Notes under the pieces: model-generated
What the model saw: only the letters and a program-made list of their open reading frames with translations
What the model was told of the DNA's origin: nothing
Databases searched by the model: none
Made by a program: the position numbers and the translations under genes
Assembly (NCBI RefSeq): GCF_001677475.2
Contig: NZ_CP015229.1
DNA length: 64,000 bases
From: Escherichia coli
GTDB taxonomy: Bacteria; Pseudomonadota; Gammaproteobacteria; Enterobacterales; Enterobacteriaceae
Reading direction: 5' to 3' (one strand)
In this document: piece by piece, positions 15,057-44,262 of the stretch
How positions within the stretch are numbered: position 1 is the stretch's first letter
Layout of the letters: every line of letters begins with the position of its first letter

Positions 15057-15121
15057 TCGGCAAAACTAGTTGACGTCTAATAGTTGTTTTATATTCTCAA
15101 AATATGTTAAGGTTGCGCCCT

Positions 15122-15346
15122 CATTTGGGGAGTAGCCGATTTCCAGATTCCGGAAATGTACGTGTCAACATACTCGTTGCAAAACGTGGCACGTACGGAC
15201 TGAACACTTTCAGTCAGGCGAGACCATATGCACATCAATCGCTATGCCTGCATGAACGCGAAAACCCGTCGCGGCTTGTTGTTCATGTATGCATGTTTGC
15301 TGGGGGCGATGATGTGTTTTATGGATACCCCGGTCAGGACGTTGTC
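15122..15346 (+). promoter_or_regulatory. mntP 5' leader with predicted yybP-ykoY manganese riboswitch (extent approximate)
   Basis: Long untranslated leader before the mntP ATG beginning with ggggagtagcc near the expected transcript start; the E. coli mntP leader is known to hold an Mn riboswitch; structure not folded here. Confidence 0.5.
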
Positions 15347-16804: not shown

Positions 16805-16840
16805 AGCAAAGTAAAAAGCCTCGCATTCGACGAGGCTTTA
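16805..16840 (-). terminator. Rho-independent terminator after cspC
   Basis: Stem aaagcctcg/cgaggcttt with T-run on minus strand. Confidence 0.55.
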
Positions 16841-16884
16841 TAGCGAGATTGAAGCGTATTCACACTTCAGATCAGTGGATTCGA

Positions 16885-17094
16885 TCAGATAGCTGTTACG
16901 TTAACAGCTGCCGGACCTTTCTGGCCGTCCTGAATTTCGAACTCAACGTTCTGACCTTCAGCCAGAGTTTTGAAGCCATTACCCTGGATAGCGGAGAAGT
17001 GTACGAACACGTCTTTGCTGCCATCAGCCGGAGTAATGAAGCCAAAACCTTTAGACTCGTTGAACCACTTAACCTGACCTTTAATCTTTGCCAT
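16885..17094 (-). CDS. cspC: Cold-shock-domain protein CspC
   Basis: 69-aa [23 protein letters not shown] with RNP motifs. Confidence 0.95.
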
Positions 17095-17106
17095 TTGAAA
17101 AATTCC

Positions 17107-17250
17107 TTAGATTGTTTTCTTCGCCCGCAGGCATAACATAGATAAAACTGACACATTACTGCATGAGGCACCAATATAAGGCTCGGCAGAGAAGCGGTAT
17201 TCAACGTCAACGTGTTTACTCAGGACTTCTTTACTGAAAATGCCACACAT
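17107..17250 (-). CDS. yobF: Small protein YobF (47 aa), co-transcribed with cspC
   Basis: Hand translation of minus strand: [47 protein letters not shown]; absent from ORF track (below 60 aa). Confidence 0.8.
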
Positions 17251-17919
17251 AAACAGAACTGTACCTCGTTTAACCCGAAATCTGTTATCACATACAACGT
17301 TAATTATGGCAAGCCATTTTTAAACATGTCTCGATCAGACGCACAAATCTCGATACGTCTTCCACTTTTTTTGCACACTTATGCAACGGAATACGCGCCG
17401 ATATATCATTGTGCTTAACCTTGCCAGTTCAGGCAGATACTTAAACTGACGTATTTTCTAACATAGTTCAATAAGTTCAGTTGTTCCAGGCCAGTAGGAG
17501 AAGTTATTACATAGTGCGTGCAATATCACATTTTCTGCTATGCAATGAATAAAAAGTTATATCACTTTTTCTCATAAAACAGTCAGTTAACGGCCACCAA
17601 TTACCCCAAAGAGAAGTCAATCCCCAATGGTATTGTAAATTTAAAATAAGAAAAATTGATGAATGCGCAAAAAAATCAAGAGAGAAACGTTTCGCTAATA
17701 AATAATACCACGCTTAATCACAAATCCGATGTAAACATCCTAATAAATTAATGGGCTAAATATCTTTTTCTGATATCTCGTTACGCAAATAAATAATATG
17801 ATAATTATTTGAAGTCAGACCAGAGTTTTAATTTGAAGCAGTTGCACCATGACAGTGCGTATAATCAGGATGAATTGAGTAACCCTTCAACGACGGGGTT
17901 ACTCAAGATTGAGGAAGGA

Positions 17920-31971: not shown

Positions 31972-32631
31972 TTATTGCAGTTGCACAAGAGTCAGTTCGC
32001 CCCCAAAGACAGCGCCGGTATCAATATAATGCAGGTTGCCGATATCCACGCGATGGCGCAACGGTGTATGACCAAACCAGAAATGATCAGCACCTGTAAT
32101 TCTCTGCCCTTTTTGGCGTTCACCTAATCGCGAGCGGCTCCACAAGACCTGATGCAAATCGACGTCCTTTTGCCATTCATAAACATCATCTGGATAATCG
32201 GCATGAGCAATAACATGCTTGCCGGTGCGACTGTGTACTTCAAGAATAAAGGGCAAATGCTGACATTTTTCCAGCCCCGTTTTCGCTTGTTTCTGTTGAT
32301 TATCTGCCAGCGTAATAAACCAGTCGCCGCCATTCATCAACCACAAAGACATCTGCTGGGATGCCAGCGCATCCATCGCCATCTGTTCATGATTGCCTCT
32401 TACCGCACGAACCCAATGTTGTTCCAGTAACTGCAGACAACGTAAACTTTGCGGCCCACGATCGATAACGTCTCCCACTGAGATAAGTAAATCTCGCCAC
32501 GGATCAAAACGACAATGCCATAATTTGCGGCGCAACTGCTCAAGACAACCGTGTATATCGCCAGAAAGCCAGATATGTCGCCATTGATGACCCGCAATTC
32601 TTTGATAAACGGGCGCAGGCTGTTTCATCAA
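31972..32631 (-). CDS. pphA: Serine/threonine protein phosphatase 1 PphA
   Basis: 219-aa ORF with calcineurin-like phosphoesterase motifs (GDIHG, GDVIDRG, GNHE). Confidence 0.85.
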   Translation of the reverse strand: MMKQPAPVYQRIAGHQWRHIWLSGDIHGCLEQLRRKLWHCRFDPWRDLLISVGDVIDRGPQSLRCLQLLEQHWVRAVRGNHEQMAMDALASQQMSLWLMNGGDWFITLADNQQKQAKTGLEKCQHLPFILEVHSRTGKHVIAHADYPDDVYEWQKDVDLHQVLWSRSRLGERQKGQRITGADHFWFGHTPLRHRVDIGNLHYIDTGAVFGGELTLVQLQ

Positions 32632-32719
32632 TATTTTCCTCCCGCGCTAAAGATCACATAATCTTAACAAGAATGTTAAAAACGCTGGACTCAGACAGTA
32701 GAGTGTGTGTTATGGTTGA

Positions 32720-32993
32720 CTATAAAGTCAGCGAAGGGAATGCTTCTGGCTTTTAACAGATAAAAAGAGACCGAACACGATTCCTGTATTCGGTCCAGGG
32801 AAATGGCTCTTGGGAGAGAGCCGTGCGCTAAAAGTTGGCATTAATGCAGGCTTAGTTGCCTTGCCCTTTAAGAATAGATGACGACGCCAGGTTTTCCAGT
32901 TTGCGTGCAAAATGGTCAATAAAAAGCGCGGTGGTCATCAGCTTAAATGTTAAAAACCGCCCGTTCTGGTGAAAGAACTGAGGCGGTTTTTTT
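32720..32993 (+). ncRNA. ryeA: RyeA (SraC) sRNA, antisense partner of SdsR; ends approximate
   Basis: Plus-strand terminator (accgcc...ggcggt then TTTTTTT, about 32955-32993) between pphA and yebY; a RyeA transcript opposite SdsR is established for this locus; 5' end not determined. Confidence 0.35.
32762..32864 (-). ncRNA. sdsR: SdsR (RyeB) RpoS-dependent Hfq-binding sRNA
   Basis: Minus-strand sequence GCAAGGCAACTAAGCCTGCATTAATGCCAACTTTTAGCGCACGGCTCTCTCCCAAGAGCC...GTGTTCGGTCTCTTTTT matches remembered SdsR including the terminal hairpin and U-tail. Confidence 0.75.
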
Positions 32994-33022
32994 ATTGGAA
33001 ATCAAAAGGCTATTTTAGGTAA

Positions 33023-33364
33023 TTAACAGAGTTTTTCAGCTCGTTCTATAAACGGTGCCAGACTCATTTTTTCGCCGGGATTGTTAGGATCATTAATCTG
33101 AATCACCGAAATGGGTTGGGCTTTAGTCTTCCCACTGGCAACTTCCTTTTGTGCGATATCGTTTAAAGGATACTGCACGAGGGTACTTGGGTTGATGACA
33201 TACAAAGCATTACCCGGTCGGCAAGTCAGCATCACCTCTTCGCGATTAAACGCCCATTTGTCTTTACCCACTTCAAAACGGCTGACGGTAATCACCTGCG
33301 GTGCAGCCAGCGCCGCTGCAGAACTGGTGAGTAACAGAAACGCCAGAATACTTTTTTTCATCAT
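33023..33364 (-). CDS. yebY: Periplasmic protein YebY
   Basis: 113-aa ORF with signal peptide [20 protein letters not shown]. Confidence 0.8.
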
Positions 33365-42450: not shown

Positions 42451-44262
42451 TTAAAAAGTGATACAGGTTGCGCCCTGTTCGGCACCGGACAGTTTTTCAC
42501 GCAAGGCGCTGAATAATTCACGTCCTGTTCCCACGCGTGACGCGCTCAGGTCAGGAATGTGCGGTTCGCGAGCAGCCAGTTCCGCTTCGTCTACCAGCAG
42601 CGTCAGTTCGCCTGTCTGTCCATTCACACGAATGATGTCCCCGTCGCGCACTTTTGCCAGCAGCCCGCCATCGTAGGCTTCTGGTGTTACGTGGATAGCT
42701 GACGGCACTTTACCTGAAGCGCCGGAGAGTCGTCCATCAGTAACTAACGCAATTTTGAAACACCGGTCCAATAATACACCAAGTGGCGGCATGAGTTTAT
42801 GTAATTCTGGCATTCCGTTCGCTTTTGGCCCCTGATGACGGACAACAACGACACAATCGCGGTCCAGCAAACCCGCTTCAAAGGCCGGCATAACGTCATG
42901 CTGGCTTTCAAAAACAACCGCTGGCGCTTCAATCACCTGGTTCTCAACCGGCACGGCAGAGGTTTTCATAACCGCACGGCCCAGGTTACCGCTTAACACT
43001 TTTGTCCCACCATGATGAGAGAAAGGTTGTTCGAAGGAAGCGATCACATTGCTGTCGAGTGATTTTTCCGCCCCTTCCCGCCAGTCCAGTTCACCATTAT
43101 TCAGCCATGGTTCAAGGGTATAACGAGACAGACCAAAGCCTGCCACCGTATTGACATCTTCATGCAGCAGGCCTGCTTTGAGCAGTTCACGCACCAGAAC
43201 CGGTACGCCACCTGCCGCCTGGAAGTGGTTAATATCGGCCGGACCGTTCGGGTAGAGACGTGCCATCAGCGGTACAACATCAGAAAGGTCAGAGAAGTCA
43301 TCCCAGTTAATCTGAATACCGGCCGCGCGCGCCATCGCCACCAGGTGCATGGTGTGGTTAGTGGAACCACCGGTCGCCAGCAGTGCAACGATACCGTTCA
43401 CCACCACTTTCTCATCGATCATCTTACCGATCGGCATCCATTCATTACCATTACCGGTCATGCGTGTAACCTGACGCGCAGCGGCAGCGGTCAAAGCATC
43501 GCGCAGCGGAGAATCCGGATGAACAAAAGAAGAGCCTGGCAACTGCATCCCCATAAACTCCACCACCATCTGGTTGGTGTTGGCAGTACCGTAGAAAGTA
43601 CATGTTCCCGGCGCATGATAAGAAGCGGCTTCTGATTCCAGTAGTGCCATGCGGTCCACTTTACCTTCGGCATAAAGCTGGCGAATACGCACTTTTTCTT
43701 TATTTGGCAAACCGCTTGCCATCGGTCCAGACGGCACAAACACCGCAGGCAAATGACCAAACGATAGGGCTGCCATCGTCAGACCCGGGACAATCTTGTC
43801 GCATACACCGAGGAACAGAGCACCATCAAACATGTTATGGGACAGCCCCACCGCCGCAGACATCGCAATCACTTCGCGGCTTAACAGCGACAATTCCATT
43901 CCATCCTGCCCCTGGGTGACACCATCACACATCGCCGGAACACCACCCGCAACCTGACCAACCGCATTCGCTTCATGCAGGGCTTTACGAATGATTTCTG
44001 GATAGTGTTCATAAGGCTGGTGTGCGGAGAGCATGTCGTTATAGGAGGTGATGATGGCGATATTGTTACGCAACATGCTTTTCAAAGAGGCTTTGTCTTC
44101 TGGCTGGCAGGCAGCGAAACCGTGTGCCAGGTTACCGCATGCCAACTGCGAACGATGAACAGTCGAAGTTTTCGCTTGTTCTATCCGGGCGAGGTAAGCA
44201 GAGCGAGTCTCGCGCGAACGTTCAATGATTCGATTTGTTACGCGTAACAACTGTGGATTCAT
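42451..44262 (-). CDS. edd: Phosphogluconate dehydratase Edd
   Basis: 603-aa ORF of the IlvD/Edd dehydratase family. Confidence 0.9.

What the first reader, a model, noticed from the sequence alone, without database searches (positions are those of the whole stretch)
32720..32993. SdsR/RyeA antisense sRNA pair between pphA and yebY, invisible to the ORF track
The minus strand at 32762-32864 reads as the conserved RpoS-dependent sRNA SdsR, including its terminal hairpin and U-tail, and the plus strand carries a separate strong terminator at about 32955-32993 consistent with the overlapping antisense RyeA transcript. This is a known locus, not a novelty, but it is the main non-coding functional element in the window.
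Basis: partly seen in the sequence, partly recalled or inferred. Interest (0 to 1): 0.3.

Follow-up and report, generated by a model that had tools for sequence, protein, structure and literature searches.

The report
Known SdsR/RyeA antisense sRNA pair

Summary
Confirmed, and already known. Rfam matches both families at full length: SdsR_RyeB on the minus strand (32762-32861, 114 bits) and SraC_RyeA on the plus strand (32758-32902, 175 bits). The interval is 99% identical to E. coli K-12. Mapping the K-12 annotation gives sdsR at 32762-32865 (-) and ryeA at 32724-32995 (+), between pphA and yebY. SdsR is identical to K-12; RyeA differs at 3 bases. Both experimentally defined -10 boxes, both start sites and both terminators are intact.

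Two caveats apply. The RyeA Rfam model is only the mirror image of SdsR plus its promoter, so it also hits in genera reported to have poorly conserved or no sraC; it does not test for RyeA. The plus-strand terminator is a two-way hairpin shared with yebY.

Beyond the finding, the SdsR terminator (32761-32792) is a phage attachment site, empty here and occupied by a prophage in 228 of 5,425 E. coli genomes. The 63 bases carrying the ryeA promoter (32655-32717) resemble the 3' end of integrase genes that sit at this position in other genera (E = 1.7e-5), and they fall within a series of integrase remnants of decreasing length. That origin is moderately supported, and I could not check whether it has been published.

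The parts
32763..32864 (-). SdsR (RyeB) small RNA, 102 nt by the mapped ends; the K-12 annotation gives 104 nt, 32762-32865
   Evidence: RF00111 at 114.4 bits, full length. 100% identical to K-12 sdsR b4433. Start site and 3' ends from PMC6610125 mapped onto the window. Across 96 distinct homologues, 99.8% of cells form canonical pairs, with compensatory changes at 4 terminator-stem pairs.
32768..32796 (-). SdsR intrinsic terminator hairpin, followed by the U-tail at 32767-32762
   Evidence: Terminator scan: 11 pairs, loop of 7. Fold. Covariation.
32871..32877 (-). sdsR sigma-S-type -10 box TATTCT (32876-32871) with C at -13 (32877), in the context TCTATTCTTAA
   Evidence: This hexamer is the one replaced by XhoI in the sdsR promoter mutant of PMC6610125. 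The -13 C is described in PMC3333887. TCTATTCTTA is the commonest form among homologues.
32888..32899 (-). Conserved upstream block of the sdsR promoter (CTGGAAAACCTG, about -35 to -24)
   Evidence: Read directly from the oriented homologues. Promoter segment -60 to -1 has median identity 0.80 to the window. Its role as a -35 region is inferred.
32724..32995 (+). RyeA (SraC) antisense RNA, 272 nt; its positions 40-141 are fully complementary to SdsR
   Evidence: K-12 ryeA b4432 mapped by alignment, 3 substitutions (32738, 32929, 32944). The 5' end and the 3' ends (+261 to +270 = 32984-32993) come from PMC6610125. RF00101 at 175.1 bits covers 32758-32902 but is not independent of SdsR.
32708..32716 (+). 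ryeA sigma-70 extended -10 promoter element TGtTATGGT (hexamer 32711-32716), 7 nt upstream of the start site at 32724
   Evidence: TATGGT is the hexamer replaced by XhoI in the ryeA promoter mutant of PMC6610125. Identical to K-12. Sigma-70 dependence was shown in vitro in K-12.
32655..32717 (+). Probable relic of an integrase gene 3' end; it carries the ryeA promoter (-70 to -8)
   Evidence: Top blastn hit in the whole window for the last 63 nt of intact integrase genes next to sdsR in Enterobacter (L090: 68% ungapped, E = 1.7e-5) and Kluyvera (L086: 67%, E = 1.5e-4). Unique best of 127,880 window 60-mers for both. Falls within a deletion series of integrase remnants in 51 of 117 loci. Weak points: a profile of 13 diverse integrases is not significant, and L050 gives no significant match.
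32761..32792 (.). Phage attachment-site core (attB), covering the loop, 3' arm and U-tail of the SdsR terminator; unoccupied in this window
   Evidence: This segment is duplicated at both junctions of a 43-kb prophage in E. coli NZ_CP148440.1. The same phage arm is present in 228 of 5,425 genomes. A Salmonella phage record carries the segment next to its integrase. Literature: the last 23 bp of ryeB form the attachment site of phage PhiW104 (PMC7380047).
32952..32993 (.). Bidirectional intrinsic terminator: it ends RyeA on the plus strand (U7 at 32987-32993) and yebY on the minus strand (U5)
   Evidence: Folds of both strands: -20.6 kcal/mol (z = -4.6) and -19.8 kcal/mol (z = -6.4). The RyeA 3' ends map onto the U-run.
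31972..32628 (-). pphA (Ser/Thr phosphatase 1), downstream of sdsR; in K-12 it is transcribed mainly by read-through from the sdsR promoter
   Evidence: NF008516 at 438 bits. Read-through transcription reported in PMC6610125; not tested here.
33023..33364 (-). yebY, the conserved upstream neighbour of sdsR
   Evidence: K-12 and PGAP annotation. A yebY homologue lies directly upstream of sdsR in 102 of 104 loci across Enterobacterales.

Best explanation
The interval is the E. coli sdsR/ryeA locus: two small RNAs transcribed convergently from opposite strands of one DNA segment between yebY and pphA.

SdsR (minus strand, about 102 nt) is made from a sigma-S-type promoter in stationary phase and ends at its own intrinsic terminator. 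[quoted passage not shown]

RyeA (plus strand, 272 nt) starts at a sigma-70 extended -10 promoter, runs across the whole of sdsR and its promoter, and ends at a two-way terminator shared with yebY. RyeA restrains SdsR in two ways. [quoted passage not shown] That collision also lowers pphA, which is transcribed by read-through past the SdsR terminator. The pair has been classed as a 'type VIII' toxin-antitoxin system, with an RNA toxin and an RNA antitoxin.

Shown here: the identity, boundaries, promoter boxes, terminators, structure, conservation and synteny. Taken from K-12 and Salmonella experiments and inferred for this strain: expression, sigma-factor dependence, targets, RNase III co-degradation and transcriptional interference.
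For: Both Rfam families match at full length, far above their gathering scores. The interval is 99% identical to K-12, where both genes are annotated; SdsR is 100% identical and RyeA has 3 substitutions. The -10 hexamers defined by mutagenesis (TATGGT for ryeA; TATTCT with C at -13 for sdsR), both start sites and the mapped 3' ends are all present at the expected positions. Both terminators fold far better than shuffled sequence. The locus is in 5,425 of 5,426 complete E. coli genomes. SdsR homologues occur downstream of yebY across Enterobacterales, with median identity 0.95 and compensatory changes in the terminator stem. The mechanism comes from PMC6610125, PMC3333887 and PMC8610362.
Against: No expression data exist for this strain; all functional statements are transferred from K-12 and Salmonella. 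The window differs from K-12 by a 1-nt deletion in the A-run at 32674-32678, about 46 nt upstream of the RyeA start, and by 3 substitutions in RyeA-only sequence; their effects are unknown. RyeA-specific sequence is poorly conserved outside close relatives (median identity 0.36 against 0.25 for shuffled targets). [quoted passage not shown] Choi et al. 2019 doubt that mutS is a primary target.
Confidence: 0.95

Rival explanations
1. Only SdsR is a selected gene. RyeA is a by-product of a promoter that happens to sit in a decayed integrase remnant left by an old phage integration at the SdsR terminator. It is transcribed in E. coli and may damp SdsR, but it was not built as a dedicated antitoxin.
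For: RyeA-only sequence is barely conserved (0.36 against 0.95 for SdsR). The ryeA promoter region is homologous to integrase 3' ends. The distance from the -10 box to sdsR varies between genera (18 to 83 nt). Frohlich et al. regard SraC as non-essential and variable.
Against: K-12 ryeA promoter mutants shift SdsR timing and raise pphA. In 20 integrase-less loci the A-tract and TGGACG upstream of the -10 box are at least 90% conserved, while 15 of the 16 columns between them and the TG of the extended -10 are not, and there are no indels. This suggests the relic is kept for promoter function. Relic lengths cluster at 60-72 nt, roughly promoter size. Origin and present function are not mutually exclusive.
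Confidence: 0.3
2. The plus-strand hairpin at 32952-32993 is simply the yebY terminator read backwards and has nothing to do with RyeA.
For: On the minus strand the same hairpin folds even better relative to shuffles (z = -6.4) and is followed by U5, 30 nt after the yebY stop codon.
Against: The 3' RACE ends of RyeA (+261 to +270) fall exactly on the plus-strand U7 run, and in vitro transcription gives a ~270-nt RyeA. The hairpin therefore serves both strands.
Confidence: 0.05
3. The interval encodes a small protein: the 63-aa minus-strand ORF at 32728-32919 or the 38-aa plus-strand ORF at 32856-32972.
For: Both ORFs exist mechanically.
Against: Both start with TTG, and I see no Shine-Dalgarno sequence upstream of the 38-aa ORF when reading the sequence. 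The 63-aa ORF spans the sdsR promoter, the whole structured RNA and the non-conserved downstream arm, which diverges completely between genera. The conservation pattern is that of an RNA, with compensatory stem changes. Neither K-12 nor PGAP annotates a protein here.
Confidence: 0.02

Closest known systems
SdsR/RyeB (Rfam RF00111), the RpoS-dependent Hfq-associated sRNA of E. coli and Salmonella
   Same: Sequence identical to K-12 sdsR. Same sigma-S-type -10 box with C at -13, same three-hairpin layout with terminator, same position downstream of yebY.
   Different: Nothing detectable at the sequence level; expression in this strain was not tested.
SraC/RyeA (Rfam RF00101), the cis-antisense partner, and the SdsR/RyeA 'type VIII' toxin-antitoxin pair (Choi et al. 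2018, 2019)
   Same: Same -10 box, start site, length and terminator as K-12 ryeA; full antisense overlap with SdsR.
   Different: Three substitutions in RyeA-only sequence and a 1-nt shorter A-run upstream of the promoter. The Rfam model itself covers only the part mirrored by SdsR and its promoter.
The ryeB 3'-end attachment site of Salmonella phage PhiW104 (Balbontin et al. 2008, as cited in PMC7380047 and PMC3333887)
   Same: The same segment (loop, 3' arm and U-tail of the SdsR terminator) is duplicated at prophage junctions in E. coli and carried by a Salmonella phage record next to its integrase.
   Different: In this window the site is empty. The core measured in E. coli spans about 32 bp with 2 mismatches, against the reported 23 bp. 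I could not read the original paper.
tRNA and tmRNA genes used as phage attachment sites, where the phage carries the 3' end of the RNA gene so that integration rebuilds it (general knowledge)
   Same: The integrated element supplies a new 3' end for sdsR. In the E. coli lysogen the terminator carries the phage-derived base A in place of G, which turns a G-U pair into A-U.
   Different: The target is a regulatory sRNA with an overlapping antisense gene, so integration also replaces the 5' part and the promoter of the antisense RNA.

Membership tests
SdsR_RyeB (RF00111) | Covariance-model score at or above the curated gathering score, over the full model | tested here: met
   114.4 bits against 38; model positions 1-100 of 100; E = 1.8e-21.
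SdsR_RyeB (RF00111) | About 100-nt RNA with internal hairpin and Rho-independent terminator plus U-tail, supported by covariation | tested here: met
   Fold at -35.2 kcal/mol, z = -3.8; terminator called by the scan. Across 96 distinct homologues 99.8% of cells are canonical pairs, with compensatory changes at 4 terminator pairs. Hairpin 2 is partly fixed by the search pattern used.
SdsR_RyeB (RF00111) | Sigma-S-type promoter: -10 box with conserved C at -13 | tested here: met
   TCTATTCTTAA with C at 32877 (= -13). It is the same hexamer mutated in PMC6610125. Sequence only; sigma-S dependence was not tested.
SdsR_RyeB (RF00111) | Located downstream of yebY | tested here: met
   yebY at 33023-33364 on the same strand; 102 of 104 homologous loci share this arrangement.
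SdsR_RyeB (RF00111) | Stationary-phase, RpoS-dependent accumulation; Hfq binding; repression of targets by base pairing | not testable with these tools
   Known for K-12 and Salmonella (PMC3333887, PMC6610125).
SraC_RyeA (RF00101) | Covariance-model score at or above the gathering score | tested here: met
   175.1 bits against 37, full model. Not discriminating: the model mirrors SdsR plus its promoter and hit in all 10 other genera and species tested.
SraC_RyeA (RF00101) | Own sigma-70 promoter upstream of the sdsR 3' end, on the opposite strand | tested here: met
   TGtTATGGT at 32708-32716, identical to K-12 and equal to the hexamer mutated in PMC6610125; start site at 32724. Promoter activity was not tested here.
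SraC_RyeA (RF00101) | Transcript covers all of sdsR in antisense and ends at an intrinsic terminator about 270 nt downstream | tested here: met
   SdsR corresponds to RyeA positions 40-141. Hairpin at 32952-32991 plus U7; the mapped 3' ends fall on the U-run.
Type VIII toxin-antitoxin (SdsR toxin / RyeA antitoxin) | Overproduced SdsR is toxic (through yhcB repression) and RyeA relieves the toxicity; the two RNAs are degraded together with RNase III | not testable with these tools
   Literature only (PMC6610125, PMC8610362).
Phage attachment site at the sdsR (ryeB) 3' end | Core sequence duplicated at both ends of an integrated element, with a tyrosine integrase gene next to one junction | tested here: met
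   Met in other genomes: a 43-kb prophage in NZ_CP148440.1 with the core duplicated (window 32761-32792) and the integrase adjacent; 228 E. coli genomes; an integrase homologue adjacent in 31 of 106 loci of other species. In this window the site is intact and empty.

The most novel reading that the evidence does not exclude
The ryeA promoter is not an ordinary intergenic promoter. It is the exapted last ~63 nt of a tyrosine-integrase gene, left by an ancient integration at the SdsR-terminator attachment site. Intact integrases of this lineage end ...KYLDARGAEYVMV*, and the codons GTT ATG GTT TAG overlap the same TGnTATGGT -10 motif. On this reading, phages and islands that integrate here bring their own RyeA-like outward promoter, and the E. 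coli 'antitoxin' RNA was born from phage DNA. In integrase-less loci the A-tract and TGGACG are kept while the former codons between them drift, which suggests the relic is retained because it drives antisense transcription over sdsR. I found no statement of this in the searchable literature. Balbontin et al. 2008, the most likely place for it, could not be read.
Probability: 0.45. Interest if true: 0.4.

Novelty: already known. Interest (0 to 1): 0.2.

Why it matters
For the genome scan this is a correct call of a textbook locus and adds nothing new about SdsR/RyeA. Three practical points come out of the check.

(1) An Rfam hit to SraC_RyeA should not be read as evidence for a RyeA transcript, because the model mirrors SdsR.

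(2) Automated annotation leaves this pair unannotated in the E. coli records checked here apart from K-12.

(3) The SdsR terminator doubles as a phage integration site, occupied in about 4% of complete E. coli genomes. Integration swaps out RyeA's promoter and 5' end, which could re-tune SdsR and pphA in those strains.

If the integrase-relic origin of the ryeA promoter holds, it would be a concrete example of a regulatory antisense RNA created from the debris of phage integration. It would also explain why RyeA is so much less conserved than SdsR.

Tried and rejected
(1) The simple terminator scan did not call the plus-strand terminator. Folding showed a strong interrupted hairpin, so the miss is a limit of the scan.

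(2) A profile of 13 diverse intact integrase C-termini found nothing at the ryeA promoter by protein search (best E = 4.5, elsewhere). By DNA search it ranked the site second with E = 2.3. The relic homology is significant only against closer Enterobacteriaceae integrases (L090, L086) and not against L050. The claim is therefore moderate.

(3) A search of 50,697 phage records with the SdsR 3' region gave only one convincing hit, a Salmonella prophage-derived record. A weak Actinobacillus phage hit (E = 5e-3) was not pursued.

(4) Balbontin et al. 2008 (PMC2395037) is not held, so what it says about ryeA promoter origin is unknown to me.

(5) The small ORFs overlapping the locus were considered and rejected as coding.

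(6) The -35 element of ryeA was not assigned. TGGACT/TGGACG lies 19 nt from the -10 hexamer, which is longer than optimal. The conserved block may act as a weak -35 or as something else.

(7) In one search the per-element averages printed under my labels used wrong offsets. I used only the column-by-column conservation line.

(8) The cross-species pattern fixed parts of hairpin 2 and the single-stranded core, so invariance there is partly by construction. Two of 120 matches were clear chance hits (L035, a Prevotella MAG; L123, a Burkholderiales MAG), and one Hafnia locus (L069) failed my orientation filter.

Full report
**1. The observation**

The window between 32,629 and 33,022 is the intergenic region between pphA and yebY. 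pphA lies at 31972-32628 on the minus strand (NCBIfam NF008516, 438 bits against a cut-off of 326). yebY lies at 33023-33364 on the minus strand.

An Rfam gathering-threshold scan of the whole window gave three hits, two of them here:
- SraC_RyeA (RF00101), plus strand, 32758-32902, 175.1 bits, gathering score 37.
- SdsR_RyeB (RF00111), minus strand, 32861-32762, 114.4 bits, gathering score 38.

Both cover their full models.

The K-12 MG1655 record annotates ryeA (b4432, 272 nt, +) and sdsR (b4433, 104 nt, -) between pphA and yebY. A pairwise alignment of 412 columns shows one 1-nt deletion and three substitutions. It maps ryeA to window 32724-32995 and sdsR to 32762-32865. SdsR is identical to K-12. 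The three substitutions (32738, 32929, 32944) lie in RyeA-only sequence.

**2. Promoters, ends and terminators**

Choi et al. 2019 (PMC6610125) mapped the ends experimentally in K-12:
- The SdsR start lies 1 nt downstream of the older annotation, with 3' ends at +100 to +102.
- RyeA 3' ends lie at +261 to +270, counted from its most downstream start.

Their mutagenesis primers identify the -10 boxes. Transferred to the window, these give:
- ryeA -10 box TATGGT at 32711-32716, preceded by TG at 32708-32709 (an extended -10 by sequence), with the start site at 32724.
- RyeA 3' ends at 32984-32993, on the U7 run.
- sdsR -10 box TATTCT at 32876-32871, with C at -13 (32877), in the context TCTATTCTTAA.
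- SdsR start at 32864 and 3' ends at 32765-32763.

The SdsR terminator (32796-32768) is the only one the simple scan called. The plus-strand hairpin at 32952-32991 folds at -20.6 kcal/mol (z = -4.6). The same hairpin on the minus strand folds at -19.8 kcal/mol (z = -6.4) and is followed by U5, just after the yebY stop codon. It is therefore a bidirectional terminator shared by RyeA and yebY.

**3. How the locus works**

This section rests on the literature; it is transferred to this strain by sequence identity and was not tested here.

- SdsR is a sigma-S-dependent, Hfq-associated RNA that accumulates in stationary phase. [quoted passage not shown] Its first 30 nt are required for ompD regulation.
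- RyeA is transcribed by sigma-70 RNA polymerase and overlaps all of SdsR.
- RyeA transcription interferes with the sdsR promoter.
- pphA is transcribed mainly by read-through from the sdsR promoter, so it falls under the same control.
- Reviews class the pair as the founding type VIII toxin-antitoxin system.

**4. A caveat on the proposed Rfam test**

RF00101 spans 32758-32902. That is the antisense of SdsR plus 41 nt of the SdsR promoter, and it includes neither the ryeA promoter nor its terminator.

I scanned ten loci from other taxa: Yersinia aldovae, Y. pestis, Serratia marcescens, Hafnia paralvei, Dickeya oryzae, Rahnella bruchi, Pantoea sp., Enterobacter genomosp. O, Citrobacter werkmanii and Salmonella arizonae. 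RF00101 hit at full length in every one (127-175 bits), always paired with RF00111. Frohlich et al. found sraC in only about half of the species they compared and judged its promoter variable. An RF00101 hit therefore shows SdsR conservation, not the presence of RyeA. In this window RyeA is supported by its K-12-identical promoter, start site and terminator.

**5. Conservation**

- The locus is present in 5,425 of 5,426 complete E. coli genomes, and PGAP records show no feature under it.
- A pattern scan of species-representative genomes returned 120 loci. Of these, 117 are true SdsR loci from across Enterobacterales.
- Median identity to the window by segment: SdsR 0.95; its promoter 0.80; the RyeA 3' part and shared terminator 0.63; the RyeA-only 5' part and ryeA promoter 0.36 (0.25 for shuffled targets).
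- An alignment of 96 distinct SdsR sequences gives 21 consensus pairs. Of all cells, 99.8% are canonical pairs, and there are compensatory double changes at four terminator-stem positions.
- yebY lies directly upstream in 102 of 104 loci with enough flank. pphA is directly adjacent in only 5 of 89.

**6. The SdsR terminator is a phage attachment site**

About 230 E. coli genomes carry the locus split in two. Two cases were examined:
- In one, an IS4-like element sits inside the sdsR 5' end.
- In another, a complete 43-kb prophage with a tyrosine integrase, excisionase, RecE/RecT and RalR lies between sdsR and pphA.

Aligning the two prophage junctions with the window shows a duplicated core, CGAA.ACAGGAATCGT.TTCGGTCTCTTTTTA. 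It maps to window 32792-32761, which is the loop, 3' arm and U-tail of the terminator. The integrase-proximal phage arm is joined to sdsR in 228 of 5,425 genomes.

A Salmonella phage record carries this segment about 125 nt beyond its integrase gene. In other species an integrase homologue lies next to sdsR in 31 of 106 loci.

This is known for Salmonella. The last 23 bp of ryeB form the attachment site of PhiW104, and lysogeny changes the RyeA 5' part and its expression (Balbontin 2008, as cited). A Cronobacter prophage at SraC/RyeA has also been listed. In the present window the site is empty.

**7. The ryeA promoter resembles an integrase 3' end**

TGnTATGGT occurs on the RyeA-sense strand within 255 nt of sdsR in 29 of 114 loci examined, a set that includes the window and the E. 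coli lysogen. It is preceded by a shared block, TTAACAA...AAAAA..CTGGAC-N17-. In loci with an intact integrase this block is the end of the gene:
- The integrases end ...LLGHKNLTMTKKYLDARGAEYVMV*, with GTT ATG GTT TAG overlapping the -10 motif.
- The window reads, in one frame and without gaps, AKDHIILTRMLKTLDSDSRVCVMVD.

Tests gave mixed but mostly positive results:
- Negative: a profile of 13 diverse integrase ends is not significant. The protein search found nothing at the site, and the DNA search gave E = 2.3, ranked second.
- Positive: the last 63 nt of the Enterobacter (L090) and Kluyvera (L086) integrases find window 32655-32717 as their best hit in the whole 64 kb. The alignments are ungapped at 68% and 67% identity, with E = 1.7e-5 and 1.5e-4.
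- Positive: a three-sequence DNA profile gives E = 0.003.
- Positive: with the -10 anchor excluded, 34-35 of 60 positions match. No shuffle in 20,000 reached this, and it is the unique best of 127,880 window 60-mers.
- Negative: L050 is not significant.

With the L090 integrase plus arm as query, 51 of 117 loci retain integrase 3'-end sequence next to sdsR. Retained lengths run from 1,092 nt down through 740, 549, 276, 186, 106 and 72 nt to 18 nt, and all end at the integrase 3' end. The window retains 63-66 nt, within a cluster of 60-72-nt relics in Citrobacter, Enterobacter, Cedecea and Kluyvera.

In 20 integrase-less loci the A-tract and TGGACG are at least 90% conserved. Fifteen of the 16 columns between TGGACG and the TG of the extended -10 are not, and there are no indels. 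The -10 box itself is conserved by selection of the set.

I read this as moderate evidence that the ryeA promoter is an exapted integrase remnant. The reading also accounts for a remark by Frohlich et al. that the -10 box lies about 35 nt further upstream in Salmonella: the distance to sdsR is 46 nt here against about 82 nt in most relics. A literature search for ryeA with integrase found no statement of this, and the key 2008 paper could not be read.

**8. Verdict**

The finding is correct and already known, so it deserves a low interest score. The added value of the check is threefold: the caveat on RF00101, the shared terminator, and the link between phage integration at the SdsR terminator and the origin and variability of RyeA.

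Noticed in passing
window 15119-15215 (+): Manganese riboswitch (yybP-ykoY, RF00080) match at 41.9 bits, just under the gathering score of 45 (E = 6e-8), so the default Rfam scan missed it. It lies upstream of an ORF whose product contains [18 protein letters not shown]..., which I recognise as MntP.
   Followed up: partly
window 16810-17270 (-): cspA-thermoregulator family hit (RF01766, 135.7 bits). It covers a 69-aa cold-shock-family gene (16885-17094; I recognise it as cspC) and the 47-aa upstream ORF (17107-17250; yobF), not cspA itself.
   Followed up: partly
window 53931-54007, 53835-53907 and 48750-48787 (-): Sub-threshold naRNA4 (RF02564) matches of 36-47 bits against a gathering score of 59.5, probably REP-type repeats. 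There is also a sub-threshold 'Vibrio AS5' match at 58279-58402.
   Followed up: no
window 32674-32678 (+): The A-run upstream of the ryeA promoter has 5 A's here against 6 in K-12, about 46 nt upstream of the RyeA start. Of the 15 closest E. coli matches listed, only one (strain KV7) has the same total length as the window; the others are 1 nt longer. The run is one of the conserved blocks of the putative integrase relic.
   Followed up: partly
L002 (E. coli NZ_AP027783.1), break at about window 32857: An IS4-like ISVsa5 element is inserted inside the 5' end of sdsR (about +8), which should inactivate SdsR and cut RyeA in that strain.
   Followed up: no
L004 (E. coli NZ_CP148440.1) 94-485 and 43350-43607: In the lysogen the rebuilt SdsR terminator carries the phage-derived base (CGTATTCGG instead of CGTGTTCGG), turning a G-U pair into A-U. 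Most other genera also have A at this position. The native ryeA promoter ends up 43 kb away from sdsR.
   Followed up: partly
E. coli genome collection: One of 5,426 complete E. coli genomes has no match to the locus, and one match lies on a plasmid record.
   Followed up: no
window 33012-33039 (-): A sigma-70-like promoter match (CTGAAA-16-TAAAAT) lies at the 3' end of yebY, close to where an older report placed a heat-shock promoter for pphA. Choi et al. 2019 found no activity there.
   Followed up: no
phage record PP818812.1 (Actinobacillus phage vB_Apl-pPE4) 46270-46301: A 32-nt, 91% match to the SdsR terminator segment (window 32761-32792) lies near the end of the record (E = 5e-3). It may be chance or an attachment site of a related kind.
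   Followed up: no
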